Below are positions 12,249-31,651 of a DNA stretch of 64,000 nt, one piece after another. The position numbers and the translations under genes were made by a program. Each line of letters begins with the position of its first letter. The stretch's first letter is position 1. The DNA is from an uncultured Candidatus Saccharibacteria bacterium (GTDB lineage Bacteria; Patescibacteriota; Minisyncoccia; Phycocordibacterales; Phycocordibacteraceae). The notes under the pieces are model-generated. The model was given only the letters and a program-made list of their open reading frames with translations. It did not search any database and was not told the DNA's origin. The stretch covers positions 1,128-65,127 of the forward strand of contig CAZWLE010000001.1 in assembly GCA_964634305.1 (NCBI GenBank), in the 5' to 3' direction.

Positions 12249-12491
12249 ATGTACTTCGTGTACCTCATAGAGTGCGCCGATAAGAGTATTTACACCGGCG
12301 TTACGACCGATGTCGCACGACGCTTTGAAGAACATAAGAGTGGAAAGGGTGCGCACTACACGCGTGCACGCAAACCAGTTCGTATTCTCTATAGCGAACC
12401 GCAACCAGACCGCAGTAGCGCGCAAAAACGGGAAGCGCTCATAAAGTCATGGTCTCGAGCGCAAAAGCTCGCATTCCTGAAGAATAGTTGA
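12249..12491 (+). CDS. Stand-alone GIY-YIG domain protein (80 aa, YhbQ/UPF0213-like)
   Basis: YFVYLIECADKSIYTGVTTDVARRFEEH matches the GIY-YIG core. Confidence 0.6.
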   Translation: MYFVYLIECADKSIYTGVTTDVARRFEEHKSGKGAHYTRARKPVRILYSEPQPDRSSAQKREALIKSWSRAQKLAFLKNS

Positions 12492-12525: not shown

Positions 12526-12945
12526 ATGCCTGACTATCAGAATCCTCGTTTCAAAAAGCCCTTCCGCAAGGGTCCCCCTATGCGCCGTGACTCACGCGAT
12601 ATGGGTCCTAAAAAGCTCTACAAGGCCGACTGTGCCAACTGTGGGAATGTAACCGAAGTGCCCTTCCGTCCAAACGGCATGAAGCCGGTCTACTGTCGTG
12701 ACTGCTTTAAGCGCGACGATGAACCAATGCGTCCTCGCGATACCCGCACGTTCCATCGTGAGAAGCCTTCGTTCAACACTCGTCCTGTCGCTCCTGCTGC
12801 TGACCCTCGTATTGATGCGCTTGCTCGCCAGCTTGCTGCCGTTGAAGCAAAGCTTGATGGTCTTACGGCACTTATCGAAGATCTTTCGGTAGTTCCGGCG
12901 CCAAAAGCAGCACCTAAAAAGCGCGCAACCAAAAAGAAAGCGTAG
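12526..12945 (+). CDS. CxxC...CxxC zinc-ribbon protein with a basic, low-complexity C-terminus
   Basis: CANCGN...CRDC, a four-cysteine ribbon, then a Pro/Ala/Lys-rich tail. Function unknown. Confidence 0.4.
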   Translation: MPDYQNPRFKKPFRKGPPMRRDSRDMGPKKLYKADCANCGNVTEVPFRPNGMKPVYCRDCFKRDDEPMRPRDTRTFHREKPSFNTRPVAPAADPRIDALARQLAAVEAKLDGLTALIEDLSVVPAPKAAPKKRATKKKA

Positions 12946-14453: not shown

Positions 14454-14640
14454 TAGCACATCGCGCCACGTGTGGTACCGTTCTCTTACGGTCGTTCTTA
14501 CTCACCCCCTAAACCAAATCCACCATGGACGGAGACCAGAATCAGCCGACGGAGGGTGAAGTCGTTGAAACGCCTGTTGAGGCAGAAACGGCAGCCCCTG
14601 AGGCAGCACCCGAGGCGTAAGCCTCGCGAACGCGATACAC

Positions 14641-14672
14641 AAAAGGACGCTCTTCGGAGCGTCCTTTTGTGT
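14641..14672 (+). terminator. Intrinsic terminator
   Basis: AAAGGACGCTC-ttcg-GAGCGTCCTTT followed by TGTGTT. Confidence 0.5.
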
Positions 14673-14684
14673 TGAGATATACTG

Positions 14685-15227
14685 GTGGCCATGAGAATTG
14701 GGATGGGCTCGTTGAATAAGACTAAGCTTGAAGCGCTTGAGAGCGTTCTTGCTGACTATCTGCTGTTTAGAAAAGCGGAAGTGGTCGGCGTGGATGCGGT
14801 CACTGATGTTAATGGTCACCCAAAATCGTTGGAGGAAACCATTAGTGGTGCGATTGCGCGCGCTAAGAAAGCGCAGGAAGGTAATGTGTATGGATTTGGT
14901 ATTGAGGGCGGTCTTATGGCGGTGCCTTATACCAAGTCTGGCTACATGGAGGTTGCAGCCTGCGCTATTTATGACGGTGCTCAAATTCATCTTGGCCTTT
15001 CACCCGCTCTTGAATGGCCGGGAAAAGTTACGGACTGCATTGTGAACCAGGGTCTGGATGGGAGTGCAGCCATGAAAGCATGCGGTCTTGATAGTGGAGA
15101 AGGAAAATTAGGTGAGCGCGAGGGATTTATAGGCATTGTGACTAAAGGGCGTATAACACGTACGGACTACAATCGTATGGCCGTTATGATGGCGCTCACG
15201 CACCTTGAATTCCCTGAACACTACTAA
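14685..15227 (+). CDS. YjjX-family inosine/xanthosine triphosphatase (non-canonical NTPase)
   Basis: Aligns by eye to E. coli YjjX blocks (NKTKLEALESVL; EETISGAIARAKKA; EGFIGIVTKGRITRTDYNRMAVMMAL). Confidence 0.5.
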   Translation: MAMRIGMGSLNKTKLEALESVLADYLLFRKAEVVGVDAVTDVNGHPKSLEETISGAIARAKKAQEGNVYGFGIEGGLMAVPYTKSGYMEVAACAIYDGAQIHLGLSPALEWPGKVTDCIVNQGLDGSAAMKACGLDSGEGKLGEREGFIGIVTKGRITRTDYNRMAVMMALTHLEFPEHY

Positions 15228-15232
15228 TACCT

Positions 15233-15523
15233 ATGCAAGGAGACGTTGAAGACACCCAGAGAGAACTTGCACTGCTGAAAGAGCGCAATGCGCGAGTTGA
15301 AGCGGACAAGGCGTGGGAAACAAGCGTCGTACGTACCGCCTGTGTTTCTCTTCTTATTTACGGCACGGTTGTCCTCGCGCTTGTGGGAATCGGAAATGAT
15401 AATCCGTTTTTGAACGCGCTTATACCCGTGACTGGTTTTATTATCTCGCTCCAATCACTTCCGGTAGTGGAGCGAAAGTGGAAAGAGTGGTACCGTCGCA
15501 AAAAGGACGCCGCAAAGATATGA
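15233..15523 (+). CDS. Small membrane protein (2 predicted TM segments)
   Basis: Hydrophobic segments VSLLIYGTVVLALVGIG and LIPVTGFIISL. It overlaps the next gene by ATGA. Confidence 0.3.
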   Translation: MQGDVEDTQRELALLKERNARVEADKAWETSVVRTACVSLLIYGTVVLALVGIGNDNPFLNALIPVTGFIISLQSLPVVERKWKEWYRRKKDAAKI

Positions 15524-16071
15524 ACGACGAGGTCATACAGGAAGGAGAGTCGCGGACCGGGACGCACTATATTATCCGCTACCCAACCCAGGACGACCTT
15601 GAAAGTCTCTGGCGATATGCAAATCGACTCTCTCAGGAACGTACCTTTGTGCGTTTCCAAGGAGAAGAACTCACTCTTGAGCAAGAGCAAAAGGCACTTA
15701 CTACCTGGTTGGAGAATAGAGCATCAGGCGAAGCTGCTACCTTGTTTCTTATTGTCGATGGTGAAGTGCAGGGTATTGGGGGAGCTAATCGCCAATCAAG
15801 AACAGAATCACATATAGCTAGTCTCGCGCTTTCCATTGACGCTTCGGTTCGTGGCCAGGGTCTTGGTGAGACGTTGCTGCGCGCAGTGCTTGATGAGGCA
15901 AAGCGCTCAATGAAAGACCTTCGTCTCTTTGTGTTGGAATATAAAGAACCAAATACAACGGCAAAAGCGCTCTACGAGAAGCTCGGGTTCAAGGAGTACG
16001 GACAGCTTCCGGGTGGTACTCAGCAGCGTGGTGAATATGTTGATGCAGTCCTCATGTACAGAGAAGTATGA
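15520..16071 (+). CDS. GNAT-family N-acetyltransferase
   Basis: Acetyl-CoA-binding motif VRGQGLGETLL and overall GNAT fold length. The ATG at 15520 is preferred over the track's GTG at 15478. Confidence 0.6.
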   Translation: MNDEVIQEGESRTGTHYIIRYPTQDDLESLWRYANRLSQERTFVRFQGEELTLEQEQKALTTWLENRASGEAATLFLIVDGEVQGIGGANRQSRTESHIASLALSIDASVRGQGLGETLLRAVLDEAKRSMKDLRLFVLEYKEPNTTAKALYEKLGFKEYGQLPGGTQQRGEYVDAVLMYREV

Positions 16072-16574
16072 AAGCAAAAGTCATTATTGTTGATGAGAAC
16101 GACGTAGAGATTGGGCTCGCGGAGAGAGATCAATGGGAAATAGGTGCTATTCACCGTGTGTCAGCGCTCTGGCTCACTAATTCAAAAGGTGAGGTACTTC
16201 TTGCAAAGCGAGCGTTAGTGAAGCGCCATCAGCCAGGTAAGTGGGGACCGGCAGCAGCAGGTACGATTGAGGAAGGAGAGACCTATGACTCGAATATTGT
16301 TAAAGAAGCCGAGGAAGAAATCGGAGTAACTCTTTCACTAGAGCAGCTGAGGAAAGGTCCAAAGATACTAAAGGGACCAGATGATAATCGTCGGTTTATT
16401 CAGTGGTACATAGGAACAGCAGAGGTGGCTCTCGAAGATTTGAAACTTCAGGACGATGAAGTATCAGAAGCACGCTGGGTGCCGCTTCCCGAGTTGCTTT
16501 CTTGGATGAAAGAACGTCCAGATGATTTTGTTAAAACCATTCAGGCAGATTTTGTCGCTCAACTATCTGTGTAG
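16068..16574 (+). CDS. NUDIX hydrolase
   Basis: Nudix box GTIEEGETYDSNIVKEAEEEIGV. Confidence 0.65.
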   Translation: MKAKVIIVDENDVEIGLAERDQWEIGAIHRVSALWLTNSKGEVLLAKRALVKRHQPGKWGPAAAGTIEEGETYDSNIVKEAEEEIGVTLSLEQLRKGPKILKGPDDNRRFIQWYIGTAEVALEDLKLQDDEVSEARWVPLPELLSWMKERPDDFVKTIQADFVAQLSV

Positions 16575-16576
16575 AT

Positions 16577-17182
16577 ATGAAGGTTCTCGTTGCTACGAAT
16601 AACAAAGGGAAGCTTGAGCGCTATCGAAAGCTTCTACGAGGCACCGACATCACACTTCTTTCTCCAGGAGAGCTTGGTATTACTGCAGTAGACGTTGATG
16701 AGACTGGTGAGACGCTTGCCGAGAACGCGCTTCTTAAAGCACGTGCGTATCTTGGAACCGTTGATTTCCCTATTCTCGCAAATGATACCGGGGTATGGGT
16801 TCAGGGTGAGGGCATGGTAACTACACCAAAACGTTCGGGTCTTGCGGGAGCTGATGAGAGAACCCTCTCTGAAGAGGAAATGGCCACAACTGTTAAAGAT
16901 TTTTGGAAAGGGATAGCGCACAAGTATGGCGGCGAAGTTGATGCGGCGTGGCCGGAAGTATTCGCGCTTATTATGCCAGACGGTACAGAGCGCACCGTTG
17001 AATCGCGTCGTGAGATTATCCTTACCGATAGAGAGTTTGGTCCGTTGCATCTAACGATGCCGCTTCGACCACTCTATATATCAAAAATGACTGGCAAACC
17101 GGCTATTCAGCATACGCTCGAAGAGGAGGATTATGAACTCACGCCAGTACGTGAGGCGCTTCTGTCATTGCTCCATGATTAA
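16577..17182 (+). CDS. rdgB: RdgB/Ham1-family non-canonical purine NTP pyrophosphatase
   Basis: KVLVATNNKGKLERYRKLL N-terminal motif and DETGETLAENALLKA substrate-binding motif. Confidence 0.75.
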   Translation: MKVLVATNNKGKLERYRKLLRGTDITLLSPGELGITAVDVDETGETLAENALLKARAYLGTVDFPILANDTGVWVQGEGMVTTPKRSGLAGADERTLSEEEMATTVKDFWKGIAHKYGGEVDAAWPEVFALIMPDGTERTVESRREIILTDREFGPLHLTMPLRPLYISKMTGKPAIQHTLEEEDYELTPVREALLSLLHD

Positions 17183-17768
17183 AGCGATACTATTCGACCT
17201 CGACGGCGTGGTAATGGTTGGCCGCGAGAAATACTACAGTGTTCGCTACGCGGAAGAACACGACGTGCCCATTGAGCACGTGAATGAGTTTTTCCTTGGC
17301 CCATTTCGCAAGTGTGTATTTGGCTCCTGTGACCTTAAAGAAGAAATTGAACCATTTCTATCAAAATGGAAATGGACAGGAACTACTGAGGAGTTTCTCG
17401 ATAAATGGTTTGCTGCAGAATCTAAAGTAGACGAGACGGTGCTTGCGACAATCGATGCACTACGTGCAAAAGGATACCGATGCTATATCGCTAGTCGTCA
17501 GGAAAAGTATCGACTTGCCTATCTTCTCGATACCGTGGGACTCCGTGCGCATTTTGACGGATACTTCTCTACCTGTGACATTGGATTTGATAAGCATGAA
17601 CCAGCGTACTGGCATTATGTACGTGCCGAGCTTGGTGTAGCTCCTGAGGAAATACTCTTCTTGGACGATGCTCAGAAGAACATCGACTATGCACGGTCGA
17701 TAGGTGTCGATGCCCACTTCTACGACGGACGCGCGGTACTAGAGCGCGAATTAGCCAAGCTCACGTAA
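17175..17768 (+). CDS. HAD-superfamily hydrolase (phosphatase-like)
   Basis: Motif I (IKAILFDLDGVV) lies immediately after the preferred ATG, and motif IV (FLDDAQKNID) is present. The track start at 17133 overlaps rdgB. Confidence 0.6.
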   Translation: MIKAILFDLDGVVMVGREKYYSVRYAEEHDVPIEHVNEFFLGPFRKCVFGSCDLKEEIEPFLSKWKWTGTTEEFLDKWFAAESKVDETVLATIDALRAKGYRCYIASRQEKYRLAYLLDTVGLRAHFDGYFSTCDIGFDKHEPAYWHYVRAELGVAPEEILFLDDAQKNIDYARSIGVDAHFYDGRAVLERELAKLT

Positions 17769-17782
17769 GATATACTCCCGAT

Positions 17783-18040
17783 ATGACGGCAGATATTGAA
17801 TCTAAGCAACTTCGGGAACTTCGCGAGATAAGTGATGACATTGAGGTTTTGCGAGAGCAGTCAAAGCCACATGCCTCGTTTGTGCGCGGCATCTTTCATG
17901 GTGCCGGCGCAGTGCTGGGTGGTGTCATCGCGCTTGCGCTCCTTGGATTCTTGCTCGGTGTGCTGGGACTCATCCCGGGATTCGATAAGTTTGAATCGTA
18001 CATGGGCTCTCTCGTACAAGCATTTGAGCACCGCTACTAG
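17783..18040 (+). CDS. Small membrane protein
   Basis: C-terminal hydrophobic stretch GAVLGGVIALALLGFLLGVLGLIPG. Confidence 0.3.
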   Translation: MTADIESKQLRELREISDDIEVLREQSKPHASFVRGIFHGAGAVLGGVIALALLGFLLGVLGLIPGFDKFESYMGSLVQAFEHRY

Positions 18041-18042
18041 CC

Positions 18043-18600
18043 ATGCATGAGATAGAAGTAAAAGCAGCGCTAAAAGACAAGGAAGGCGTCATGCGTCTTC
18101 TCATAGAGCGCGGTGTTGTATTTTCCGAGCCAGTCACCGAAGACGACATGCTCTATGCGCTTGAGGTGGGAGATAAAGAGTCATATAACCGGAACCAAAA
18201 CTTCTTGCGCACGCGTGTGCGAGGTAATGGAGAAATCATCTTTACGCTCAAGCATCACCCCGAGCGTCATGAAGGCCGCGCTGATTCTATGCCCATTGAG
18301 CACGAAACAAGTGTTGGGTCTCGTGAGGAAATTGAAGCGATGCTGAAATATATGGGGTACCAAGAAGCTGTGCGGGTGCAGAAGACGAGACAAAAAGGGA
18401 AATTGGATAAGCGCGAGTACTGTATCGACGATGTCGAAGGACTAGGGTCGTTTATTGAGATAGAAGAACTGGGAGCCAAAGAGGATGTCTCTCGGATTGT
18501 GGAGGAGCTCCTAGAAGAACTCGCTGGACTTGGTATTGCTCGGGAGGATATGTTCGCTGAACGGTACGATATTGCAATGCTCAAGAAACGTTGGAGCTAG
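18043..18600 (+). CDS. CYTH-domain protein (triphosphate tunnel metalloenzyme / class IV adenylate cyclase-like)
   Basis: N-terminal EIEVK motif, alternating acidic/basic beta-strand pattern and a C-terminal EIEEL motif, typical of CyaB/CYTH. Confidence 0.55.
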   Translation: MHEIEVKAALKDKEGVMRLLIERGVVFSEPVTEDDMLYALEVGDKESYNRNQNFLRTRVRGNGEIIFTLKHHPERHEGRADSMPIEHETSVGSREEIEAMLKYMGYQEAVRVQKTRQKGKLDKREYCIDDVEGLGSFIEIEELGAKEDVSRIVEELLEELAGLGIAREDMFAERYDIAMLKKRWS

Positions 18601-18647
18601 CGGTATACTGGTTGCAGGTTCGTTTATCGGCATTTTTCTACGAAACC

Positions 18648-19211
18648 ATGGATATGAAGGCAATTATTGGCATCATTGTTGCAGTCGCTGTGATTGGCGG
18701 CGGCGCATGGTATGTCACGCAGCAGTCAGAGGAAGGTACTGAGGAGCAGAAGGCAACAGGTACGATGAACACGGGTACCTACGCAACTTTGCTCGCACTT
18801 GGCGGCTCACAGGAGTGTCAGGTCAGTGTTATGAATCCTGACGCACCGGCGACTGGCACCGTGTACGTCTCAGGAGATGAGGTACGTTCTGACGTGGTCG
18901 CCACCCCCGAGGGTACGTCTATAACCGCACATATGATAAAAACCGGCGGCTATCTCTACATGTGGACCGACATGATGCCGCAGGGGGTACGAGTGAAAGA
19001 AAGCGCAGCCGCAGAAATGGCAGATGAGAATCAGACCGCAACGGGCTTTAACACGAGCACGGAAGTCTCCTATTCCTGCAAGCCATGGATAGTGGATGCA
19101 TCAAAGTTTGAAGTCCCAGGCTCCGTTACGTTTATGGAATTTGGTGCGCAAGGTGGTACGGGTGGTTTCCCGATGCCAAACATGCCGCTGACGGCGCCGC
19201 AGCCAAACTAG
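18648..19211 (+). CDS. Secreted/anchored hypothetical protein
   Basis: N-terminal TM/signal segment (KAIIGIIVAVAVIGGGAWYV) and a Gly/Thr-rich C-terminus. Confidence 0.35.
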   Translation: MDMKAIIGIIVAVAVIGGGAWYVTQQSEEGTEEQKATGTMNTGTYATLLALGGSQECQVSVMNPDAPATGTVYVSGDEVRSDVVATPEGTSITAHMIKTGGYLYMWTDMMPQGVRVKESAAAEMADENQTATGFNTSTEVSYSCKPWIVDASKFEVPGSVTFMEFGAQGGTGGFPMPNMPLTAPQPN

Positions 19212-19230: not shown

Positions 19231-19253
19231 AGCGCCCCCAGTCGGGGGCGCTT
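19231..19253. terminator. Bidirectional terminator between convergent genes
   Basis: AGCGCCCCC-agtc-GGGGGCGCT flanked by A-rich and T-rich tracts. Confidence 0.5.
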
Positions 19254-19276: not shown

Positions 19277-19690
19277 TTAGACCGTGTTCTTGCTGTCGAC
19301 TTGCGGAGGCATTGGCACGGGGACGAGCACATAGAATTGCCGACCCGTGAGATTGCTGCCACCAGCGAGGACACGGGCGCGCACGACGATAAGCTCGACG
19401 TTTTGATGAGCGTACGGCGTGTTTGCTTCGCGGTCGAGCACTGCATCAACGCGAATGATGGCCGGTGTTGACCCATTTGAGAGACACCGTTGCTCAGTCA
19501 GTTGCGTGAGCATGGTCGCGATGAAGACTTCATCGCCGCCAGATTGGAACGCACGGCCGATAGCGCGCGCGTCTTCTTCTTGCGAACAGAAGATGCCGTC
19601 GTACGGAATAGACGGATTTGCGTCTTGTGCGTAACTGAAGCCAGTGGTGAAAATCCACCCCGCAGCGAGTGCGGTGCAAAAGCGCATCAT
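19277..19690 (-). CDS. Secreted hypothetical protein (signal peptide)
   Basis: N-terminal signal-like MMRFCTALAAGWIFTTGFSYA. No recognisable domain. Confidence 0.35.
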   Translation of the reverse strand: MMRFCTALAAGWIFTTGFSYAQDANPSIPYDGIFCSQEEDARAIGRAFQSGGDEVFIATMLTQLTEQRCLSNGSTPAIIRVDAVLDREANTPYAHQNVELIVVRARVLAGGSNLTGRQFYVLVPVPMPPQVDSKNTV

Positions 19691-19872: not shown

Positions 19873-19887
19873 GTGCCCAGTCTCGAT

Positions 19888-20931
19888 ATGAAGCTCCATC
19901 TTGAAAACGGCGAATCGTTTGAGGGAGCATCATTTGGTGCGAAGAAAACAATGACAGGTGAAGTCGTATTCAACACCGGTATGGTTGGATACGTAGAAAC
20001 GCTTACCGACCCGTCATACCGAGGACAAATTCTCGTATGTACCTATCCGCTCGTTGGTAACTACGGTGTGCCTGACAAGAAAGGATTTGAATCAGAGCGT
20101 ATTCAGGTAGCAGGGCTCGTCGTGTCGGAATACTGCGAAGCGTATTCGCATGCAGACGCAAAAGAATCGCTTGGTGCGTGGCTGACGCGTTCTGGAGTTC
20201 CGGCAATGACCGGCGCTGATACGCGCGCTATCACGAAGATGCTCCGCGAGAAGGGCGTCATGCTTGGTGCTCTTTCATACGACGGCAAGAAGCCAAAGCT
20301 CAAGGACCCGAACGAAGGGAATTTGGTAGCAGACGTATCGCTTTCCAAAAAGAAGATCTATGGTTCCGGCAAGAAGCGCATTATTGCGGTTGATTGCGGC
20401 ATGAAGGAGAACATTGCGCGCATGCTCGCCGTACCAGGAGCGACCGTGACGCGTGTGCCATGGGATTACGATTTCACTAAGGAGAAGTACGACGGACTCT
20501 TCATTAGTAACGGTCCGGGGAATCCAGAACAATGTGAGGCCACGATTCAACATCTGCGTAAAGCAATGAAGAAAGACACGCCGATACTTGGTATCTGTCT
20601 TGGTACGCAGCTGCTTGCGCTTGCGGCAGGAGGAAAGACCTACAAGCTCAAGTATGGTCATCGTTCTCAAAATCAGCCGTGCACCATTGTGAAGTCAGGC
20701 GCAAAGCGTTCCTACATCACGAGTCAAAACCACGGCTACGCTGTTGATGCCGCATCACTCCCTAAGGAATGGAAGGTGTGGTTCACCAATGCCAATGATG
20801 GCTCAGTGGAAGGTATACGCCATACCACTAAGCCGTGGCAGGCAGTGCAATTTCATCCTGAGGCAGCACCAGGCCCAACTGACACGGCGTGGGTACTGCA
20901 GGATTTTCTTAAGAAAGTAGGCGCTATATGA
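19888..20931 (+). CDS. carA: Carbamoyl-phosphate synthase small (glutaminase) subunit
   Basis: N-terminal GEVVFNTGMVGY, class I GATase Cys-His-Glu region (GICLGTQLLA ... HGY). The ATG at 19888 aligns with the E. coli CarA N-terminus, whereas the track's GTG at 19873 lies inside the leader hairpin. Confidence 0.9.
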   Translation: MKLHLENGESFEGASFGAKKTMTGEVVFNTGMVGYVETLTDPSYRGQILVCTYPLVGNYGVPDKKGFESERIQVAGLVVSEYCEAYSHADAKESLGAWLTRSGVPAMTGADTRAITKMLREKGVMLGALSYDGKKPKLKDPNEGNLVADVSLSKKKIYGSGKKRIIAVDCGMKENIARMLAVPGATVTRVPWDYDFTKEKYDGLFISNGPGNPEQCEATIQHLRKAMKKDTPILGICLGTQLLALAAGGKTYKLKYGHRSQNQPCTIVKSGAKRSYITSQNHGYAVDAASLPKEWKVWFTNANDGSVEGIRHTTKPWQAVQFHPEAAPGPTDTAWVLQDFLKKVGAI

Positions 20932-23900
20932 AACTAGACAAGCCAAAGAAGGTGCTGCTCCTTGGATCAGGCGGCCTTCGTATTGGTCAGGCAGGTGAGT
21001 TTGATTACTCCGGTTCTCAGGCCATTAAGGCGTTTAAGCAGGAGGGGATTGAGGTCATCCTCATGAATCCAAACATTGCGACGGTCCAGACGGACGAAGG
21101 ACTCGCAGACCGCGTGTACTTCCTGCCGCTCACGATAGAGTTCGCGACCGACATCATTAAAAAAGAACGCCCTGACGCTATCTCCCTTTCGTTTGGTGGC
21201 CAGACGGCGCTCAATCTTGGCTTGGCGCTTGAAGAAAAAGGGGTTCTAAAGAAATACGATGTTCGCGTGCTGGGTACGCCAGTGTCGGTGATTCGCGATA
21301 CCGAAGACCGTGACCTCTTTAAAAAGCGTCTCGACGAAATAGAGGTAAAGACGGCACGCTCGTTTGCAGTACGAAATGTCGCGGATGCCAAAGAAGCAGC
21401 AAAAAAGCTGGGCTACCCGATTATGTCGCGCTCAGGCTTTGCGCTTGGTGGCGAAGGCTCAGGTCTCGTGCGCACTGAGGCAGACTTGGTCGCCAAACTC
21501 TCCGAGGTATTTCATACAAACCCGCAGGTGCTTATCGAAGAATATCTCGAGGGCTGGAAGGAAGTGGAGTACGAAGTGGTACGTGACGCGTACGACAACT
21601 GCATCACGGTCTGTAACATGGAGAATCTTGACCCTATGGGAGTACACACGGGTGAGTCTATTGTCGTTGCGCCATCCCAGACCCTTACGAATGCCGAATA
21701 TCACAACCTTCGCGAGGTCGCGATTAAAACGATTCGTCACCTTGGCATCGTCGGTGAATGCAACATTCAGTACGCACTGCACCCTAAGACCGGTGACTAT
21801 CGCGTCATTGAAGTAAATGCTCGTCTCTCTCGTTCGTCAGCGCTCGCCTCAAAAGCAACCGGCTACCCGCTCGCCTACGTTGCGGCAAAGCTCGCGCTCG
21901 GCCACGCACTCCCTGACCTGCCAAACGCCGTCACTCGCTCAACGTCTGCGTGTTTTGAACCAGCACTCGACTACATCGTTATTAAGATGCCGCGCTGGGA
22001 CCTCAATAAATTTGAGAACGCGAATCATCAGATAGGAACAGAAATGAAGAGTGTGGGTGAAGTAATGGCAATAGGACGCTCGTTTGAAGAGGTGTTTCAG
22101 AAGGGTCTGCGCATGCTCTCGATTGGTGCTGATGGGTTTACGGCGCAACGTAATAGCAACTTCAAGATTGAAGACTACGAGAAGCAGATTAAGCATCCGA
22201 CTACTCGCCGTGTCTTTGCGATAGCGGAAGCACTCCGTAACGGCGTTACGGTAGAGCGCATTCACAAACTCTCTGGCATTGACCCATGGTTTTTGGAGAA
22301 GATGCGCAACCTTATCGCTATCGAGCGAAAACTTAAGCGTTCAACCCTTAACCGTGCTGACCTTCTGCTTGCAAAGCGCGCAGGGTTCTCTGACCGACAG
22401 ATTGCTAACCTTTCAAAGAAAACCGAAGCAGCCGTTCGTAAGTTGCGCGCGCGCGCAAAGATACGTCCGTACATAAAACAGATTGATACGCTCGCGGGTG
22501 AGTACCCAGCAGAAACAAACTACCTCTATCTCACTTATCACGGTGACCGCGACGACATCCTGCCGTCAAAGAAGAAGAGCGTTATCGTACTCGGCTCTGG
22601 TCCCTACGCGATTGGTTCTTCGGTTGAGTTTGATTGGTCGAGTGTGCAGGCACTCAAAACACTTGGCGACAATGGTTACGAAACCGTCATGGTCAATTAC
22701 AACCCGGAGACGGTGTCGACTGACTACGACATGAGTGACCGTCTCTACTTTGATGAACTCTCGCTTGAACGGGTGCTCGATATTGTTGCCTTTGAACAAC
22801 CAGCAGGGTTGGTAGTGTCTACCGGCGGACAGATTCCAAACAATCTTGCGCTCGCCCTCCACGAAGAAGGAGTAAAGATTCTCGGTACCTCACCTGCGGA
22901 TATTAATCGTGCGGAAGACCGCCATGTGTTTTCAGCACTCTTGGATAAACTTGGTATCGACCAGCCACGCTGGGTTGAGCTCTCTTCTCTTAATCAGGCG
23001 GCTAAGACAGCGGCAGAGATAGGGTATCCAGTGCTGATTCGCCCGTCGTACGTGCTCTCAGGTGCTGCCATGAGTGTAGCCTTTGATGAAGCATCGCTGC
23101 GTAAGTTCCTCCAGCGTGCGACGAAGGTGTCATCTGACCACCCGATTGTTATCTCTAAGTTTATTGAGAATGCGCGTGAAATTGAAATAGATGGTGTAGC
23201 GTCAAAAGGAAAGCTTGAGCTCTATGCGTTTAGTGAGCACGTAGAGAACGCCGGCACGCACTCAGGTGACGCGACGATAGTGCTTCCTGCGCAGCGCACT
23301 TACTTGGAAACAATTCGCCGTGCAAAACATATTGCAAAGCAGATTGTAAAAGAATTGAAGATAACAGGACCGTTTAATATTCAATTCCTTGCTAAAGACA
23401 ACAATATTCAGGTGATTGAGTGTAACGTGCGTGCCTCTCGTTCGTTCCCATTCGTCTCAAAAGTCACACGTTACAACTTCATTCGTATTGCGATTGAAGC
23501 AATGCTTGGAAAGAATATTTCGAGCGACTACAAAACGCTGGAGCTTGATTACGTCGGTGTAAAAAGCCCACAGTTCTCGCATAGTCGTATTAAGGGCGCC
23601 GACCCACTCTTGTATGTGGAAATGGCATCAACCGGTGAAGTAGCAGCCTTTGGTGAGAACTATCACCATGCACTCCTTAAATCGATGATGGCAGCGGGTA
23701 TGCGGTTGCCGAAGAAGAACGTCCTTGTCTCTCTTGGTGGTGATGAGAACAAAATAAAACTGCTCCCATCACTTCGAACACTGCACGATATGGGTTTTGT
23801 ACTCTTTGCGTCAGAGGGTACGCATGACTTCTTGGCTGAACACAACATTCCGTCAAAGAAAGTGCATAAAATTAATGCGCACAAAGAACCAAACATTCTG

Positions 23901-24128
23901 TCACTTATTGAAGATGGAGATGTAGACCTCATTGTTAACATTCCGACGCGCCCGCTCGCGCGTGAGACGGAAGACGGCTTTGTTATTCGTCGAAAAGCAG
24001 TCGACCTTGGTATTCCACTCATCACCAACCGCCAGCTTGCCGAAGCATTTATCACGGCACTCTCTGAAACGGGTGTAGGAGAGAAGCTACACGCCAAGGC
24101 GTGGGACGAATATAAGAAGGAAGCGTAA
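20928..24128 (+). CDS. carB: Carbamoyl-phosphate synthase large subunit
   Basis: Two ATP-grasp halves, an oligomerisation domain and a C-terminal MGS-like domain. The start overlaps the carA stop (ATGA). Length 1066 aa. Confidence 0.95.
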   Translation: MKLDKPKKVLLLGSGGLRIGQAGEFDYSGSQAIKAFKQEGIEVILMNPNIATVQTDEGLADRVYFLPLTIEFATDIIKKERPDAISLSFGGQTALNLGLALEEKGVLKKYDVRVLGTPVSVIRDTEDRDLFKKRLDEIEVKTARSFAVRNVADAKEAAKKLGYPIMSRSGFALGGEGSGLVRTEADLVAKLSEVFHTNPQVLIEEYLEGWKEVEYEVVRDAYDNCITVCNMENLDPMGVHTGESIVVAPSQTLTNAEYHNLREVAIKTIRHLGIVGECNIQYALHPKTGDYRVIEVNARLSRSSALASKATGYPLAYVAAKLALGHALPDLPNAVTRSTSACFEPALDYIVIKMPRWDLNKFENANHQIGTEMKSVGEVMAIGRSFEEVFQKGLRMLSIGADGFTAQRNSNFKIEDYEKQIKHPTTRRVFAIAEALRNGVTVERIHKLSGIDPWFLEKMRNLIAIERKLKRSTLNRADLLLAKRAGFSDRQIANLSKKTEAAVRKLRARAKIRPYIKQIDTLAGEYPAETNYLYLTYHGDRDDILPSKKKSVIVLGSGPYAIGSSVEFDWSSVQALKTLGDNGYETVMVNYNPETVSTDYDMSDRLYFDELSLERVLDIVAFEQPAGLVVSTGGQIPNNLALALHEEGVKILGTSPADINRAEDRHVFSALLDKLGIDQPRWVELSSLNQAAKTAAEIGYPVLIRPSYVLSGAAMSVAFDEASLRKFLQRATKVSSDHPIVISKFIENAREIEIDGVASKGKLELYAFSEHVENAGTHSGDATIVLPAQRTYLETIRRAKHIAKQIVKELKITGPFNIQFLAKDNNIQVIECNVRASRSFPFVSKVTRYNFIRIAIEAMLGKNISSDYKTLELDYVGVKSPQFSHSRIKGADPLLYVEMASTGEVAAFGENYHHALLKSMMAAGMRLPKKNVLVSLGGDENKIKLLPSLRTLHDMGFVLFASEGTHDFLAEHNIPSKKVHKINAHKEPNILSLIEDGDVDLIVNIPTRPLARETEDGFVIRRKAVDLGIPLITNRQLAEAFITALSETGVGEKLHAKAWDEYKKEA

Positions 24129-24199
24129 GTGCGCCTTCACCCGCCCTTCACTAGGCGTTCGCGGTATAATGGGTGGGATTACCGGCTAGCCTCGCATAC

Positions 24200-24700
24200 A
24201 TGAACAAAAACACGCTTTGGATTATCGGTGGCGTCATTGTGGTTCTCGCACTTGGCTGGTGGGCGTATGCATCCATGAATGCTCCTACGGCCGTTGAGAA
24301 CAGCAGCCAGCAAGTCGCGGGAGAAAACGAAGAAGGATTTGTTGACGGCTCAAAAGACGGTGCTGCAGCCTCTCCTTCCACGCCAACGGGCGCAGTCGTT
24401 ATCACTCACAGTGAGAATGGCTTCTCTCCGGCATCTGTTACGGTGAAGCAGGGAACGACTGTCACGTTTATTAATGAGGACGGTAGTCGTATGTGGGTTG
24501 GCTCTGATGAGCACCCAACTCACACCGGGTATGCAGGCACCTCTCGCAGTGAGCACTGTACGAACGGTCCAAGCGCAACGGCGTTTGACCAGTGTGGTGC
24601 AACTGCAACCTACATGTTTACGTTCAACAAGACAGGAACGTGGGGGTATCACAACCACGTAGCGGCTGACCAGAAGGGTACCGTCGTTGTTACGCCATAG
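24200..24700 (+). CDS. Membrane-anchored cupredoxin-like domain protein
   Basis: N-terminal TM segment, a Ser/Gly-rich linker and a C-terminal beta-sandwich (VTVKQGTTVTFINEDGS ... GTWGYHNHV) resembling the cupredoxin fold. A TATAAT box at 24165–24170 favours the ATG at 24200. Confidence 0.35.
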   Translation: MNKNTLWIIGGVIVVLALGWWAYASMNAPTAVENSSQQVAGENEEGFVDGSKDGAAASPSTPTGAVVITHSENGFSPASVTVKQGTTVTFINEDGSRMWVGSDEHPTHTGYAGTSRSEHCTNGPSATAFDQCGATATYMFTFNKTGTWGYHNHVAADQKGTVVVTP

Positions 24701-24702
24701 GT

Positions 24703-25059
24703 ATGCGTTTCTCTGGAGTGCCTGAGCTTCTCCTTCGTCTAGGCGTTGCGTTTGCGTTTCTGTATCCGCCGGTTAACGCCATCATCGATCCGTATGCGTG
24801 GGTAGGATACTTCCCATCGTTTGTGCGCGACATAGGTTCAGAGATGCTCATCTTGCATATCTTTGGACTTATCGAGGTCATCATTGGTCTCTGGATACTG
24901 TCGGGTCGCAAGATATTCCTGCCATCAGTAGCCGCAACGGTGGCATTGCTTGGCATCGTGGTCTTTAACCTTGGTGACTTCCAGGTACTTTTCCGCGACC
25001 TCTCGATAGCAGCAATGTCACTTGCGCTTGCCTTGCTGCATCGGCCGCAGAAAGCCTAA
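24703..25059 (+). CDS. DoxX-family membrane protein
   Basis: Four hydrophobic helices in the DoxX size range (118 aa). Confidence 0.4.
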   Translation: MRFSGVPELLLRLGVAFAFLYPPVNAIIDPYAWVGYFPSFVRDIGSEMLILHIFGLIEVIIGLWILSGRKIFLPSVAATVALLGIVVFNLGDFQVLFRDLSIAAMSLALALLHRPQKA

Positions 25060-25106
25060 AGGAGGCGTGTGGGTGGGGATAGTGCGACACGTATAATGGG
25101 CGGGCT

Positions 25107-26765: not shown

Positions 26766-26784
26766 CCCTTGGTATACTAGGTAT

Positions 26785-27456
26785 ATGAACTGGAAGGGCT
26801 GGACGCTGTTTGCCATTATCCTCGCGCTCGCCGGAGCGATAACAGCCTTTATACTCGTTGCGAACGATACACCGCCCCCTGCGCCGGTAGTAGAGGAAGA
26901 AGTACCAAATCTTGAAGGTCAGAATCTGTACGCAAGTGGTGAGTATGGTTTTACGCTCCGCTATCCTGCGTCTGCGCGTCTTGAAGAAGCATTCTCTGCG
27001 GAGTATCACCTCGCTCCAACCTGGCGTGCGTCAGCGCGTGAAGATACCGGTACTCCTGTGCTTGCGCTCGTTGCGTATGAGACGGAAAGCGATAGTTCGT
27101 ACCCTCGTTACTACCGGGCGCTCGTGCGTCTTGGGGTGTCAGACGATGCAGCGGATGTGTCATCGTGTGAGTCAGTAACGCCTGATTCAGGGGAAGAGGC
27201 CCTTGCAGATGTCGTATTGAATGGCACGACTTGGAGTGCGTTCTCCTTTGCAGATGCTGGCATGCAGCAGTACGTCAAAGGTGTCTCATATCGCACCGTG
27301 CATAACGGCAAGTGTTACGCACTCGAGAAGATTGCCGCTGGTTCCTCGTATCGTGATGACCCAGAAAGTGGAAGTGATATCCCTGACGAAGAGCTCGACG
27401 CAGAATATGCGCAGCTTGATGCGATTGTTTCCACCTTCACGTTCTCTGCGCCATAG
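26785..27456 (+). CDS. Secreted hypothetical protein (N-terminal TM/signal)
   Basis: WTLFAIILALAGAITAFILVA anchor. No recognisable domain. Confidence 0.35.
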   Translation: MNWKGWTLFAIILALAGAITAFILVANDTPPPAPVVEEEVPNLEGQNLYASGEYGFTLRYPASARLEEAFSAEYHLAPTWRASAREDTGTPVLALVAYETESDSSYPRYYRALVRLGVSDDAADVSSCESVTPDSGEEALADVVLNGTTWSAFSFADAGMQQYVKGVSYRTVHNGKCYALEKIAAGSSYRDDPESGSDIPDEELDAEYAQLDAIVSTFTFSAP

Positions 27457-27501
27457 TTTCGTTCTTGGTAGTCGTGTGCTAGAGTAGCCCGCAATACAGG
27501 T

Positions 27502-29786: not shown

Positions 29787-29790
29787 TCGT

Positions 29791-30567: not shown

Positions 30568-30576
30568 AATCGAGGC

Positions 30577-31650: not shown

Positions 31651-31651
31651 T

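What the first reader, a model, noticed from the sequence alone, without database searches (positions are those of the whole stretch)
14685..18600. Contiguous cluster of six nucleotide house-cleaning/phosphohydrolase genes, including two unrelated ITPase families
Back-to-back on one strand with overlapping stops and starts are: a YjjX-family ITPase/XTPase, a small membrane protein, a GNAT acetyltransferase, a NUDIX hydrolase, an RdgB/Ham1 ITPase, a HAD phosphatase, a small membrane protein and a CYTH triphosphate-tunnel enzyme. Having both YjjX and RdgB (functionally redundant non-canonical purine NTPases) plus NUDIX and CYTH in one apparent operon is unusual. The block is also visibly AT-richer than the ABC-F gene and carAB on either side, which suggests acquisition as a unit. 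It could be a nucleotide-pool sanitation or signalling-nucleotide degradation module.
Basis: partly seen in the sequence, partly recalled or inferred. Interest (0 to 1): 0.5.

Follow-up and report, generated by a model that had tools for sequence, protein, structure and literature searches.

The report
Conserved phosphohydrolase operon in a Paceibacteria genome
A tightly packed string of five small phosphate-cleaving enzymes in a tiny-genome (CPR) bacterium is real and inherited vertically, not recently imported, and its central "ITPase" belongs to a divergent, uncharacterised subfamily that elsewhere sits inside essential proteins such as leucyl-tRNA synthetase.

Summary
On the + strand, 14691-19211, lie YjjX/NTPase_I-T, a small membrane protein, GNAT, NUDIX, a Ham1-like protein, HAD-IA, a second small membrane protein, CYTH and a membrane-anchored protein. 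Gaps are -8 to +47 nt, and strong hairpins bracket the unit.

Three points need correction.
- Only five genes are phosphohydrolases.
- YjjX and Ham1 are remote structural homologues, not unrelated families.
- The Ham1-like protein keeps the fold and the triphosphate/metal residues but lacks the ITPase signatures (FGYDP, SHR), so redundancy with YjjX is unlikely.

By published motifs the CYTH protein is a triphosphatase, not a class IV adenylate cyclase.

The organism is a Paceibacteria (Patescibacteria/CPR). At least five related genomes (GC 55-61%) share the order YjjX…Ham1-like…HAD-TM-CYTH-p206-carA. Individual slots hold other phosphohydrolases (NUDIX, His_Phos_1, LMW phosphatase), and block composition tracks each host. 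The window's GC dip is small (0.490 vs 0.515). Acquisition as a unit is therefore not supported.

Best reading: an ancestral nucleotide and phosphoester house-cleaning operon; substrates are inferred.

Side result: the same Ham1-like domain, with NUDIX and HAD, occurs in-frame inside LeuRS, AlaRS, TopA and other proteins.

The parts
14637..14672 (+). Terminator-like hairpin (16-bp stem, UUCG loop) ending 18 nt before the YjjX ATG. It marks the upstream boundary of the unit.
   Evidence: Sequence read. Fold -29.1 kcal/mol, z -5.12, 0 of 200 shuffles as stable.
14691..15227 (+). YjjX / NTPase_I-T family NTPase (178 aa from the ATG; an upstream GTG at 14685 is also possible).
   Evidence: PF01931 117 bits. 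TIGR00258 scores 107.4, just under its 117.1 cut-off. AF2 pLDDT 93.4 and TM 0.80-0.86 to E. coli YjjX 1u5w and VC0702. 488 homologues, mostly Paceibacteria, 60-80% identical.
15233..15523 (+). Small membrane protein sm96 (96 aa), no family.
   Evidence: No Pfam or NCBIfam hit. Hydrophobic segment at residues 30-56. Homologues lie next to YjjX in L113, L140 and L141.
15520..16071 (+). GNAT N-acetyltransferase (183 aa from the ATG that overlaps the previous stop by 4 nt; a GTG at 15478 is also possible).
   Evidence: PF00583 48.8 bits, plus other GNAT models. Orthologues sit in the same position in L007 and L013.
16068..16574 (+). NUDIX hydrolase of the IDI/YfcD/DR0079-like branch. It has an intact Nudix box and lacks the catalytic Cys/His of isopentenyl-diphosphate isomerase.
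   Evidence: PF00293 71.4 bits. Nudix box GTIEEGETYDSNIVKEAEEEIG. Closest solved structures are type-1 IDI, YfcD and DR0079. WGPAAAGTI replaces WTNSVCGHP (sequence; the IDI motif is recalled from memory).
16577..17182 (+). Divergent Ham1-like NTP pyrophosphatase-fold protein ('Ham1L', 201 aa), the most constant gene of the neighbourhood.
   Evidence: PF01725 matches residues 4-76 only. AF2 pLDDT 94.5 and TM 0.75 to E. coli RdgB-ITP 2q16. K12, K54, R86 and D70 are kept. E15, D68, GxPGxxSxR, GFGYDP and KNxxSHR are replaced.
17175..17768 (+). HAD-IA phosphatase (197 aa); substrate not assignable.
   Evidence: PF00702 66 bits; TIGR01509 55 bits, above its cut-off. Motif I FDLDGV. Start taken from the gene call on L001. 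Nearest solved structures are the sEH N-terminal phosphatase, YihX and beta-PGM.
17783..18040 (+). Small membrane protein sm85 (85 aa), conserved partner downstream of Ham1L/HAD.
   Evidence: Hydrophobic segment at residues 33-70. Orthologues sit in the same slot in L002, L004, L007, L008, L087 and L088. Unverified 84-85 aa ORFs occupy that slot in L170 and L171. Only a non-significant DUF5665 hint.
18043..18600 (+). CYTH / triphosphate-tunnel metalloenzyme, phosphatase type rather than adenylate cyclase.
   Evidence: PF01928 55 bits; TIGR00318 64.4, above 57.95. ExExK at residues 3-7 with no room for an HF motif; F54-L-R-T-R58; E-I-E kept; all conserved in orthologues, judged against the criteria of PMC8233210. 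Nearest solved structures are PH1819 and the triphosphatase SaTTM.
18648..19211 (+). p206: N-terminally anchored or exported protein of unknown function, last gene of the unit (a TTG at 18591 is an alternative start).
   Evidence: Hydrophobic residues 1-25. Orthologues lie between the block and carA in L002, L004, L007, L008, L013, L087 and L088. No significant Pfam hit.
19231..19252 (.). G+C-rich hairpin between the convergent p206 and the minus-strand ORF 19277-19690. It marks the downstream boundary, ahead of a promoter-like site at 19786 and carA.
   Evidence: Terminator scan. Fold -23.6 kcal/mol, z -5.14.

Best explanation
The block is a vertically inherited, terminator-bounded nine-gene transcription unit of a Paceibacteria (Patescibacteria/CPR) chromosome. 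It collects soluble 'house-cleaning' phosphohydrolases directly upstream of the de novo pyrimidine genes.

**Shown**
- The gene families, the packing and the flanking hairpins.
- Conservation of the core order YjjX … Ham1-like … HAD - small TM protein - CYTH - p206 - carAB in several related genomes.
- Slot-wise replacement by other phosphohydrolases.
- A lineage-wide association of the Ham1-like gene with NUDIX genes.

**Inferred mechanism**
- YjjX removes deaminated purine NTPs (ITP/XTP).
- The Ham1-like protein is still an Mg-dependent NTP pyrophosphatase, because its triphosphate-binding Lys/Lys/Arg and catalytic Asp are retained. Its remodelled base pocket means it acts on a different, unknown, non-canonical nucleotide.
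- NUDIX cleaves nucleoside di- or triphosphate derivatives.
- CYTH hydrolyses a triphosphate (PPPi or an organic triphosphate).
- HAD removes the remaining monophosphate.

Together these steps would convert aberrant or surplus nucleotides to harmless, recyclable products. The GNAT and the three membrane or exported proteins have no assigned role.
For: - **Families and fold:**
- **Unit structure:**
- **Taxon:**
- **Conserved arrangement:**
  - L087: YjjX-His_Phos_1-Ham1L-HAD-sm85-CYTH-p206-carAB.
  - L088: YjjX-Ham1L-NUDIX-HAD-sm85-CYTH-p206-carAB.
  - L089.
  - L170: YjjX-NUDIX-Ham1L-HAD-84/85-aa ORF-CYTH-…-carA.
  - L171.
  - L007, with GNAT, orthologous NUDIX, Ham1L, a second NUDIX, sm85, CYTH, p206 and carA.
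  - L002, L004, L008 and L013, where the slots hold His_Phos_1, LMW phosphatase or NUDIX.
- **Composition:** the block tracks its host in relatives. Block vs flank GC3 is 0.81/0.83, 0.71/0.71, 0.65/0.61 and 0.59/0.66.
- **NUDIX enrichment within 2 kb of Ham1L:**
  - 0.130 vs 0.040 per kb in 17 loci outside the clade, Poisson P 0.004.
  - 0.295 vs 0.034 per kb inside the clade.
  - None in 777 kb around canonical rdgB genes.
- **Domain fusions:** Ham1L is fused with NUDIX, HAD and Ser_hydrolase in single polypeptides.
- **Catalytic residues:** the triphosphate triad and Asp are retained (with PMC3899018).
- **Context:** the complete UMP pathway lies immediately downstream.
Against: - No substrate is demonstrated for any of the five enzymes.
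- The HAD has no nucleotide-specific signature; its nearest structures are sugar- and lipid-phosphate phosphatases.
- Co-directional tight packing is the genomic norm here, so co-transcription alone says little about a shared pathway.
- In more distant Paceibacteria the neighbours of Ham1L are heterogeneous: PNPOx, RNaseH-like, GrpB, APH, peptidase S51, MBL, Obg.
- YjjX is next to Ham1L in only 1 of 80 metagenomic YjjX loci.
- No promoter was identified upstream of the unit.
- The GNAT and the membrane proteins do not fit the model.
Confidence: 0.6

Rival explanations
1. There is no shared function. The block is a run of unrelated small housekeeping genes that sit together only because this streamlined genome packs nearly all genes head-to-tail on one strand, and the synteny merely reflects recent common ancestry of the compared genomes.
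For: - 56 of 65 genes are on the + strand, and the median same-strand gap is 20.5 nt.
- The full arrangement is seen only in relatives whose proteins are 62-80% identical.
- Neighbours of Ham1L are heterogeneous in distant lineages.
- YjjX-Ham1L linkage is found in 1 of 80 distant YjjX loci.
Against: - The slots around Ham1L are refilled with different phosphohydrolase superfamilies rather than with random genes.
- NUDIX is enriched about 3-fold near Ham1L outside the clade.
- Ham1L, NUDIX and HAD are fused into single proteins elsewhere.
- YjjX-Ham1L adjacency also arose in Taylorbacteria L017 and in L109.
Confidence: 0.22
2. This is the first reader's view: the block is a horizontally acquired, AT-richer island that entered the genome as a unit.
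For: - Lowest GC3 of 58 eight-gene runs (0.461 vs 0.530).
- Codon-usage divergence at about the 93rd percentile.
- Raw GC 1.5 SD below the window mean.
- The CYTH gene has a narrow distribution, 46 homologues against 284-488 for Ham1L and YjjX, and its nearest solved relatives are archaeal.
Against: - The same locus, between peptidase M10/ABC-F and carAB, holds the cluster in relatives with 55-61% GC, and the block there matches flank composition.
- Content varies gene by gene.
- There is no integrase, transposase or repeat boundary in the block.
- Ham1L and YjjX are widespread, well-conserved Paceibacteria genes.
- Raw GC is lower elsewhere in the window, at 49-53 kb.
Confidence: 0.05
3. It is a signalling-nucleotide module. 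The CYTH protein would be a class IV adenylate cyclase, as NCBI names its orthologues, and the NUDIX, HAD and Ham1-like enzymes would degrade the messenger.
For: - TIGR00318 'class IV adenylate cyclase' is matched above its cut-off.
- Orthologues are annotated that way.
- A RelA/SpoT homologue is present in the window.
Against: By the motif criteria of PMC8233210, the protein lacks the HFxxxxExExK extension. It also keeps the first Arg of xRxR and keeps ExE rather than ExA. Its nearest characterised relative, SaTTM, makes no cyclic nucleotide. In sister genomes the CYTH slot is occupied by a NUDIX hydrolase, which fits a hydrolytic role.
Confidence: 0.06
4. It is an anti-phage defence locus in which a Ham1-like protein senses dITP, as KomC does in the Kongming system, or in which nucleotide-depleting enzymes act on phage.
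For: KomBC structures appear among the weaker structural neighbours of both models. The NUDIX and GNAT proteins give weak hits to PADLOC candidate models.
Against: - No PADLOC system matches. The hits are domain-level only, at 20-27 bits.
- There is no SIR2-like, deaminase or other effector partner in the block.
- The locus is a stable core-genome neighbourhood, not a variable defence island.
- Ham1L is a near-universal single gene of the lineage.
Confidence: 0.03

Closest known systems
E. coli YjjX / V. cholerae VC0702 (NTPase_I-T, PF01931; ITPase/XTPase)
   Same: The Pfam match is full-length (117 bits). The predicted fold superposes at TM 0.80-0.86. The N-terminal S-x-N-x-x-K, the GIEGG motif and the C-terminal G-x-x-T-x-G-R motif are present.
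   Different: About 22-25% identity. The score is below the NCBIfam equivalog cut-offs (107 vs 117). Here it is linked to a Ham1-like gene, which is not the case in E. coli (my knowledge). Activity is untested.
RdgB / Ham1 / ITPA non-canonical purine NTP pyrophosphatases (PF01725, TIGR00042)
   Same: Same overall fold (TM 0.70-0.75 to 2q16, 1k7k, 4bnq). It shares the N-terminal T/S-x-N-x-x-K, the E-x-G-x-T-x-x-E-N-A-x-x-K motif and the catalytic Asp. Lys/Lys/Arg align with RdgB Lys13/Lys53/Arg87 (PMC3899018).
   Different: The invariant GFGYDP and KNxxSHR motifs, including the 'SHR signature' that reads the 6-keto group of ITP (PMC5075207), are replaced by the invariant (M/F)PxRxLYxSK and (T/A/K)P(V/I). 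D68 becomes N and E15 becomes R. The GxPGxxSxR loop is replaced. TIGR00042 scores 37 against a cut-off of 145. It therefore works like an NTP pyrophosphatase but is not a member of the ITPase equivalog.
CYTH triphosphate-tunnel metalloenzymes of the phosphatase type (SaTTM Saci_0718, PH1819; NeuTTM/CthTTM-like)
   Same: The ExExK, xRxR and ExE motifs are present. The nearest solved sequences are PH1819 and SaTTM. It is a single-domain protein of about 185 aa.
   Different: An aromatic Phe sits at the position that is Ala in SaTTM and Trp in thiamine triphosphatase. This hints at an organic rather than inorganic triphosphate substrate. Databases annotate it as a class IV adenylate cyclase.
The 'house-cleaning' enzyme guild (Nudix, ITPase/Maf/YjjX, MazG/dUTPase, HAD nucleotidases) as described for model bacteria
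   Same: Same enzyme superfamilies and the same presumed role of removing non-canonical nucleotides. PMC3899018 lists Nudix, ITPases and Maf together.
   Different: In model organisms these genes are dispersed (my knowledge). Here five of them form one conserved unit with membrane proteins. In other CPR lineages the same domains are inserted in-frame into aminoacyl-tRNA synthetases and topoisomerase I.

Membership tests
YjjX / NTPase_I-T (PF01931) | Full-length match to the family profile above the curated cut-off | tested here: met
   117.2 bits against a cut-off of 25; residues 8-173 on profile positions 1-160 of 162.
YjjX / NTPase_I-T (PF01931) | YjjX fold | tested here: met
   AF2 pLDDT 93.4; TM 0.80-0.86 to 1u5w, 1u14 and 1zwy.
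YjjX / NTPase_I-T (PF01931) | Equivalog-level identity with inosine/xanthosine triphosphatase (TIGR00258), and ITP/XTP hydrolysis | tested here: inconclusive
   107.4 bits against a cut-off of 117.1. Enzyme activity cannot be tested with these tools.
RdgB/Ham1/ITPA ITPase | Ham1 fold with the N-terminal phosphate- and metal-binding motifs (Lys13, Lys53, Arg87 and Asp69 of RdgB) | tested here: met
   TM 0.75 to 2q16. K12, K54, R86 and D70 are invariant and aligned (residues named in PMC3899018).
RdgB/Ham1/ITPA ITPase | SHR signature and GFGYDP base-specificity pocket | tested here: not met
   The canonical set has invariant G153-F-G-Y-D157 and S181-H-R183. The window's subfamily has (M/F)PxRxLY and (T/A/K)P(V/I) in those columns. 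Significance of SHR: PMC5075207.
RdgB/Ham1/ITPA ITPase | Equivalog score (TIGR00042 and the NF0113xx models) | tested here: not met
   37-58 bits against cut-offs of 145-272, and only the first ~76 residues match.
NUDIX hydrolase | Nudix box GX5EX7REUXEEXGU and a Pfam match | tested here: met
   GTIEEGETYDSNIVKEAEEEIG, with K in place of R. PF00293 71.4 bits.
Type 1 isopentenyl-diphosphate isomerase (nearest solved relatives of the NUDIX protein) | Catalytic Cys67 and metal-ligand His69 (E. coli numbering, from memory), and the equivalog score | tested here: not met
   WGPAAAGTI stands where IDI has WTNSVCGHP (sequence). PRK03759 scores 61.8 against 127.
CYTH / triphosphate tunnel metalloenzyme | N-terminal ExExK, basic xRxR and acidic ExE motifs; Pfam match | tested here: met
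   E3-I-E-V-K7, R56-T-R58 and E-I-E in FIEIEEL; conserved in L007, L087 and L088.
Class IV adenylate cyclase (CyaB) | HFxxxxExExK extension; first Arg of xRxR replaced by a small residue; ExA instead of ExE (PMC8233210) | tested here: not met
   ExExK starts at residue 3, so there is no HF motif. The Arg is retained and ExE is retained. The TIGR00318 hit above its cut-off is therefore a family-level match only.
Thiamine triphosphatase branch of CYTH | W/YxRxR aromatic residue that stacks on the thiazolium ring | tested here: inconclusive
   F54-L-R-T-R58: aromatic, but Phe rather than Trp or Tyr. Conserved in four orthologues.
HAD-IA phosphatase | Motif I DxDG(T/V) and a family profile match | tested here: met
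   FDLDGV. PF00702 66 bits; TIGR01509 55.4 against 29.4. Nucleotidase specificity: not testable.
Operon (single transcription unit) | Co-directional genes with minimal gaps, bounded by terminators; one transcript | tested here: inconclusive
   Gaps are -8 to +47 nt, with flanking hairpins. No promoter was found and no RNA data are available.
Horizontally acquired genomic island | Atypical composition, absence from the same site in relatives, mobility genes or boundaries | tested here: not met
   Composition is only mildly low. The cluster is present at the same site in relatives and is compositionally ameliorated there. The block contains no mobility genes.
Known anti-phage defence systems (PADLOC) | Match to system-specific protein models | tested here: not met
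   Only weak domain-level hits of GNAT and NUDIX to candidate models.

The most novel reading that the evidence does not exclude
The Ham1-like protein at the centre of the block may represent a CPR-wide, uncharacterised branch of the ITPase fold with a new substrate specificity. Together with NUDIX and HAD (and Ser_hydrolase) enzymes it may form a functional module that is encoded in either of two ways. One is an operon, as in this window. The other is a set of whole domains inserted in-frame into essential enzymes: LeuRS at several sites, AlaRS, topoisomerase I, Cbf5/TruB and a TrxB-like protein.

If that coupling is functional, the module could act on by-products of the host enzymes, for example dinucleoside polyphosphates or mis-activated adenylates from aminoacyl-tRNA synthetases, rather than on deaminated purine NTPs.
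Probability: 0.2. Interest if true: 0.75.

Novelty: new variant of a known kind. Interest (0 to 1): 0.5.

Why it matters
CPR/Patescibacteria have minimal genomes and are thought to depend on scavenged nucleotides. Yet this lineage keeps, in one conserved unit next to a complete UMP pathway, five phosphohydrolases from four folds. That argues that nucleotide-pool quality control is under strong selection in these organisms.

The work also flags two likely systematic mis-annotations in public databases:
- 'non-canonical purine NTP pyrophosphatase' for a subfamily that lacks the ITPase specificity signature;
- 'class IV adenylate cyclase' for a phosphatase-type CYTH.

Finally, it gives a concrete, testable set of proteins. 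The in-frame occurrence of the same domains inside LeuRS, AlaRS and TopA was not found in the searchable literature. If functional, it would be an unusual way of coupling house-cleaning enzymes to essential machinery.

Tried and rejected
- **Recent HGT.** Tested by GC, GC3 and codon divergence in the window and in four relatives. Rejected because of synteny and compositional tracking.
- **Paralogues elsewhere in the window.** phmmer found none. A NUDIX HMM found one further NUDIX at 53090-53746. A window-wide Pfam tally showed only the top 25 families, so it could not give a full count of phosphohydrolases. I therefore make no formal enrichment claim within the window.
- **Defence system.** PADLOC was negative. 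A Kongming-like reading was rejected for lack of partner genes.
- **cAMP signalling.** Rejected on the CYTH motifs.
- **Type-1 IDI identity of the NUDIX protein.** Rejected because the catalytic Cys and His are absent.
- **Sequence-level test that YjjX and Ham1L are homologous.** hhalign gave E 0.002 and probability 13%, which is inconclusive. Structure comparison and the literature settle the shared fold.
- **Sigma-70 promoter upstream of the unit.** None was found. A TATACT at 14678-14683 lies 7 nt before the ATG (sequence), but I did not pursue a leaderless-mRNA idea.
- **p108, the membrane protein between ABC-F and YjjX in L087 and L089.** No remnant was found in the 231-nt spacer.
- **Literature searches** for the operon, and for Ham1/NUDIX insertions in aminoacyl-tRNA synthetases of CPR, returned nothing relevant. 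This covers only the searchable library.
- **Greedy ORF calling** mis-called some loci, for example an antisense 410-aa ORF over the L007 NUDIX. Those calls were replaced by HMM-based calls.

Full report
**1. What is in the window**

ORF listing and profile searches (Pfam; NCBIfam) confirm a co-directional run on the + strand:
- YjjX/NTPase_I-T, 14691-15227 (PF01931, 117 bits).
- A 96-aa protein without family, 15233-15523.
- GNAT, 15520-16071.
- NUDIX, 16068-16574 (71 bits).
- A Ham1-like protein, 16577-17182. PF01725 scores 45 bits, but only residues 4-76 match profile positions 2-72 of 186.
- HAD-IA, 17175-17768.
- An 85-aa protein without family, 17783-18040.
- CYTH, 18043-18600 (PF01928 55 bits; TIGR00318 64.4, above 57.95).
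- A ninth gene, p206, 18648-19211.

Other features of the unit:
- The two small proteins and p206 carry hydrophobic segments; the enzymes do not.
- Gaps inside the run are 5, -4, -4, 2, -8, 14, 2 and 47 nt.
- A perfect 16-bp hairpin (14637-14672; -29.1 kcal/mol, z -5.1) lies just upstream of the YjjX start.
- A G+C-rich hairpin (19231-19252; -23.6 kcal/mol, z -5.1) follows p206.
- A promoter-like site at 19786 precedes carA.

The count of 'six phosphohydrolases' is really five plus an acetyltransferase.

**2. Organism and context**

Homologues of the Ham1-like and YjjX proteins are named Paceibacterota, Minisyncoccia, Yonathbacteria, Sungbacteria or 'Patescibacteria group'. The window therefore comes from a CPR bacterium of the Paceibacteria.

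Upstream of the block lie SerRS, a 314-aa protein, Dus, holB, a peptidase M10, tRNA-Gln, a pseudouridine synthase on the minus strand, a small GIY-YIG protein, a treble-clef zinc-finger protein and an ABC-F ATPase.

Downstream lie carA, carB, pyrB, pyrC, pyrD, a phosphoribosyltransferase and pyrF. This is a complete de novo UMP pathway, interspersed with a cupredoxin-like protein, DoxX, PIF1, TauE and a peptidase S51.

Tight same-strand packing is normal here. 56 of 65 genes are on the + strand, and the median same-strand gap is 20.5 nt.

**3. Composition**

| Measure | Block | Comparison |
|---|---|---|
| Raw GC | 0.490 | window 0.515 (SD of equal-sized windows 0.016) |
| Equal-sized windows at or below block GC | – | 7% |
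| GC of neighbours | – | ABC-F 0.500, carB 0.501 |
| GC3 | 0.461 | 0.530 (lowest of 58 eight-gene runs) |
| Codon-usage divergence | about 93rd percentile | – |

The 49-53 kb region is more AT-rich than the block.

In four relatives whose loci have 55-61% GC, block GC3 follows flank GC3: 0.81/0.83, 0.71/0.71, 0.65/0.61 and 0.59/0.66. A cluster that has equilibrated to such different host compositions is an old resident. The small dip in this window does not indicate recent import.

**4. Conservation of the arrangement**

Exact-protein look-ups and locus scans give these maps.

| Locus | Gene order |
|---|---|
| L087 | peptidase M10 - zf - ABC-F - TM protein - YjjX - His_Phos_1 - Ham1L - HAD - sm85 - CYTH - p206 - (minus-strand ORF) - carAB |
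| L088 | YjjX - Ham1L - NUDIX - HAD - sm85 - CYTH - p206 - carAB |
| L171 | As L088, with an extra polytopic membrane protein |
| L170 | YjjX - NUDIX - Ham1L - HAD - 85-aa ORF - CYTH - 179-aa ORF - carA-sized ORF (cut at the contig end) |
| L089 | YjjX - His_Phos_1 - Ham1L - NUDIX (contig end) |
| L007 | zf - GNAT - ? - NUDIX (orthologue of the window's) - Ham1L - second NUDIX - sm85 - CYTH - p206 - carA |
| L013 | zf - GNAT - Ham1L - NUDIX - p206 - carAB |
| L002, L008 | (His_Phos_1) - Ham1L - NUDIX - HAD - sm85 - NUDIX - p206 - carA |
| L004 | LMW phosphatase - Ham1L - sm85 - NUDIX - p206 |

What is constant and what varies:
- Ham1L and p206 occur in every locus that reaches them. sm85 is present in all of these except L013.
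- YjjX, HAD and CYTH are frequent.
- The slots before and after Ham1L, and the slot after sm85, hold one of several unrelated phosphohydrolases. The slot after sm85 holds either CYTH or one particular NUDIX.
The pattern, however, is vertical inheritance with gene-by-gene turnover, not a mobile cassette.

Farther away:
- YjjX is not normally next to Ham1L. This occurs in 1 of 80 metagenomic YjjX loci (L109) and in 1 of the 17 Ham1L loci outside the window's clade, the Taylorbacteria locus L017.
- NUDIX genes remain enriched within 2 kb of Ham1L. The density is 0.130 vs 0.040 per kb in 17 loci outside the clade (Poisson P 0.004) and 0.295 vs 0.034 per kb inside it. No NUDIX was detected in 777 kb around canonical rdgB genes of other phyla. 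The NUDIX HMM was built from CPR sequences, so that last control may under-detect.
- Other immediate neighbours of Ham1L in distant loci are His_Phos_1, HD, metallo-beta-lactamase-fold, Ser_hydrolase, PNPOx, RNaseH-like, GrpB, APH, peptidase S51 and Obg. The association is therefore a tendency, not a fixed operon.

**5. The 'RdgB' is not a canonical ITPase**

The window's protein belongs to a well-conserved subfamily (53-79% identity over the full length). Pfam and PDB sequence searches recognise only its first ~80 residues.

The AlphaFold model is confident (pLDDT 94.5). It superposes on RdgB, Ham1 and ITPA over the whole chain (TM 0.70-0.75), so the fold is intact.

Profile-profile and joint alignments with 20 canonical RdgB sequences show what is kept and what is lost.
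- *Kept:* N9, K12, E42, N50, K54, D70 and R86. These include the counterparts of the RdgB triphosphate triad Lys13/Lys53/Arg87 and of the catalytic Asp (PMC3899018).
- *Replaced:* the canonical invariants E15, D68, the GxPGxxSxR loop, GFGYDP and KNxxSHR give way to other invariant residues (R15, N69, APKR, (M/F)PxRxLYxSK, (T/A/K)P(V/I)).

The SHR motif is the ITPase signature. Its Arg reads the 6-keto group of ITP and is essential (PMC5075207).

My inference is that the protein is still an NTP pyrophosphatase but with a different base specificity. The proposed redundancy with YjjX is therefore unlikely.

YjjX, by contrast, is an ordinary family member. After YjjX structures themselves, the next structural neighbours of its model are Ham1/ITPase and Maf proteins. 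This agrees with the published statement that the three families share a fold. They are not 'unrelated'.

**6. The other enzymes**

*CYTH.* The criteria of Vogt et al. (PMC8233210) distinguish cyclases from phosphatases.
- A true class IV cyclase needs an HF motif four residues before ExExK. It also has a small residue in place of the first Arg of xRxR, and ExA instead of ExE.
- The window's protein starts MHEIEVK, so there is no room for an HF motif. It has F-L-R-T-R and keeps E-I-E. All of this is conserved in three orthologues.
- It is therefore a phosphatase-type tunnel enzyme, despite passing the TIGR00318 cut-off and despite the database name of its orthologues.
- The conserved Phe at the position that is Trp in thiamine triphosphatase and Ala in SaTTM is unexplained.

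*NUDIX.* It is closest to type-1 IDI, YfcD and DR0079. It has a complete Nudix box and lacks the IDI catalytic Cys and His.

*HAD.* It is a generic HAD-IA phosphatase. Its nearest structures act on lipid or sugar phosphates, so a nucleotidase role is only a guess.

*Defence.* No PADLOC defence model matches.

**7. A side result that bears on function**

A profile of the Ham1L subfamily was searched against 1.84 billion representative proteins and returned 35 hits at E <= 1e-30. Roughly a third of these are not free-standing.

In those proteins the whole domain (profile positions ~3-203) lies in-frame inside leucyl-tRNA synthetases. The usual site is just before the CP1 editing domain; other sites also occur. 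Co-inserted domains are frequent:
- NUDIX: P0300, P0301, P0375, P0388.
- HAD: P0326, P0375.
- Ser_hydrolase: P0301, P0315.
- A nucleotidyltransferase: P0305.

Weaker but full-length hits lie inside other proteins:
- topoisomerase I (P0325, P0356);
- an alanyl-tRNA synthetase that also carries guanylate kinase and Ser_hydrolase (P0364);
- an archaeal-type Cbf5/TruB (P0332);
- a TrxB-like reductase (P0350).

There are also a Ham1L-Ser_hydrolase fusion (P0292) and a protein with three Ham1-family stretches (P0344).

These proteins are real:
- P0301 is OGZ35000.1 / UniRef A0A1G2FBJ3, 'Leucine--tRNA ligase', from Candidatus Portnoybacteria.
- Several clusters have members from independent assemblies.
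- The DNA of one (L172) encodes the 1027-aa protein as one uninterrupted ORF, and the insert has host-like composition.

The fusions bring together the same enzyme set as the operon (Ham1L, NUDIX, HAD) and the neighbour seen in L018 (Ser_hydrolase). This independently supports a functional guild.

Why the hosts are essential enzymes is unknown. I found no description of this in the searchable literature.

**8. Verdict**

- The most likely function is nucleotide and phosphoester house-cleaning by a lineage-specific operon (confidence about 0.6).
- 'Acquired as a unit', 'redundant ITPases' and 'signalling' are not supported.
- The families are known. What is new is the conserved co-localisation in Paceibacteria, the divergent Ham1-like subfamily without the ITPase signature, and its recurrent fusion or insertion with NUDIX and HAD domains.
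- All substrate assignments remain inference and need biochemistry.

Noticed in passing
Outside the window: proteins P0295, P0300, P0301, P0305, P0308, P0315, P0326, P0375, P0388, P0325, P0356, P0364, P0332, P0350; DNA of one case at L172:3399-6482: The complete CPR-type Ham1-like domain is inserted in-frame into LeuRS (several sites), TopA, AlaRS, Cbf5/TruB and a TrxB-like protein. It is often accompanied by NUDIX, HAD, Ser_hydrolase, guanylate kinase or nucleotidyltransferase domains. One example is the Candidatus Portnoybacteria LeuRS OGZ35000.1. Nothing on this was found in the searchable literature.
   Followed up: partly
window 19873-33533: A complete de novo UMP pathway lies directly downstream of the block: carA, carB, pyrB, pyrC, pyrD, a phosphoribosyltransferase (pyrE-like) and pyrF. 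Interspersed are a cupredoxin-like protein, DoxX, a PIF1 helicase, TauE and a peptidase S51. This is noteworthy for a CPR genome.
   Followed up: partly
window 14454-14690: The 231-nt spacer before the unit holds a 30-codon, very acidic ORF (14525-14617, MDGDQNQPTEGEVVETPVEAETAAPEAAPEA). After it come the strong hairpin and a TATACT at 14678-14683, 7 nt before the YjjX ATG. No -35 element was found; a short-leader or leaderless transcript is possible.
   Followed up: no
window 49000-53000: This is the most AT-rich stretch of the window (GC 0.44-0.47; genes at 49018-49947 and 50103-50342 have GC 0.43-0.44). It is lower than the block under study and follows tRNA-Ala at 48822-48896.
   Followed up: no
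window 53090-53746: A second NUDIX gene (PF00293, 50.9 bits, 218 aa) lies outside the block, next to a 175-aa ORF and tRNA-Ala (54327-54402).
   Followed up: partly
window 19277-19690 (- strand): A 137-aa minus-strand ORF with no Pfam hit sits between p206 and carA. Minus-strand ORFs of 130-133 aa occupy the same position in L002, L008 and L087, but phmmer detected no similarity to the window's ORF.
   Followed up: no
L113:5196-5450, L140:6512-6850, L141:6512-6850, L109:10489-10743: Homologues of the 96-aa membrane protein sm96 (conserved EADKAWE(T/L)S motif) lie directly beside YjjX in L113, L140 and L141, which are otherwise unrelated Paceibacteria loci, and about 4 kb downstream of YjjX in L109. 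This suggests a YjjX-sm96 pairing independent of the rest of the block.
   Followed up: no
L171:3404-4012: In one relative a 202-aa polytopic membrane protein without a Pfam hit is inserted between the NUDIX and HAD genes of the cluster. It may be a transporter.
   Followed up: no
Structure searches for window 16577-17182 and 14691-15227: KomBC (Kongming anti-phage system, dITP-binding HAM1-like subunit) structures 8zsg, 9v0g and 9xvc appear among the weaker structural neighbours of both models. No partner genes of that system are present in the block.
   Followed up: partly
window 12249-12491 and 12526-12945: A stand-alone 80-aa GIY-YIG protein and a treble-clef zinc-finger protein (PF23477) precede the ABC-F gene. 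The zinc-finger gene is syntenic in L007, L013 and L087. The tRNA-Gln, the minus-strand pseudouridine synthase and the GIY-YIG gene are not called at this position in L087.
   Followed up: no
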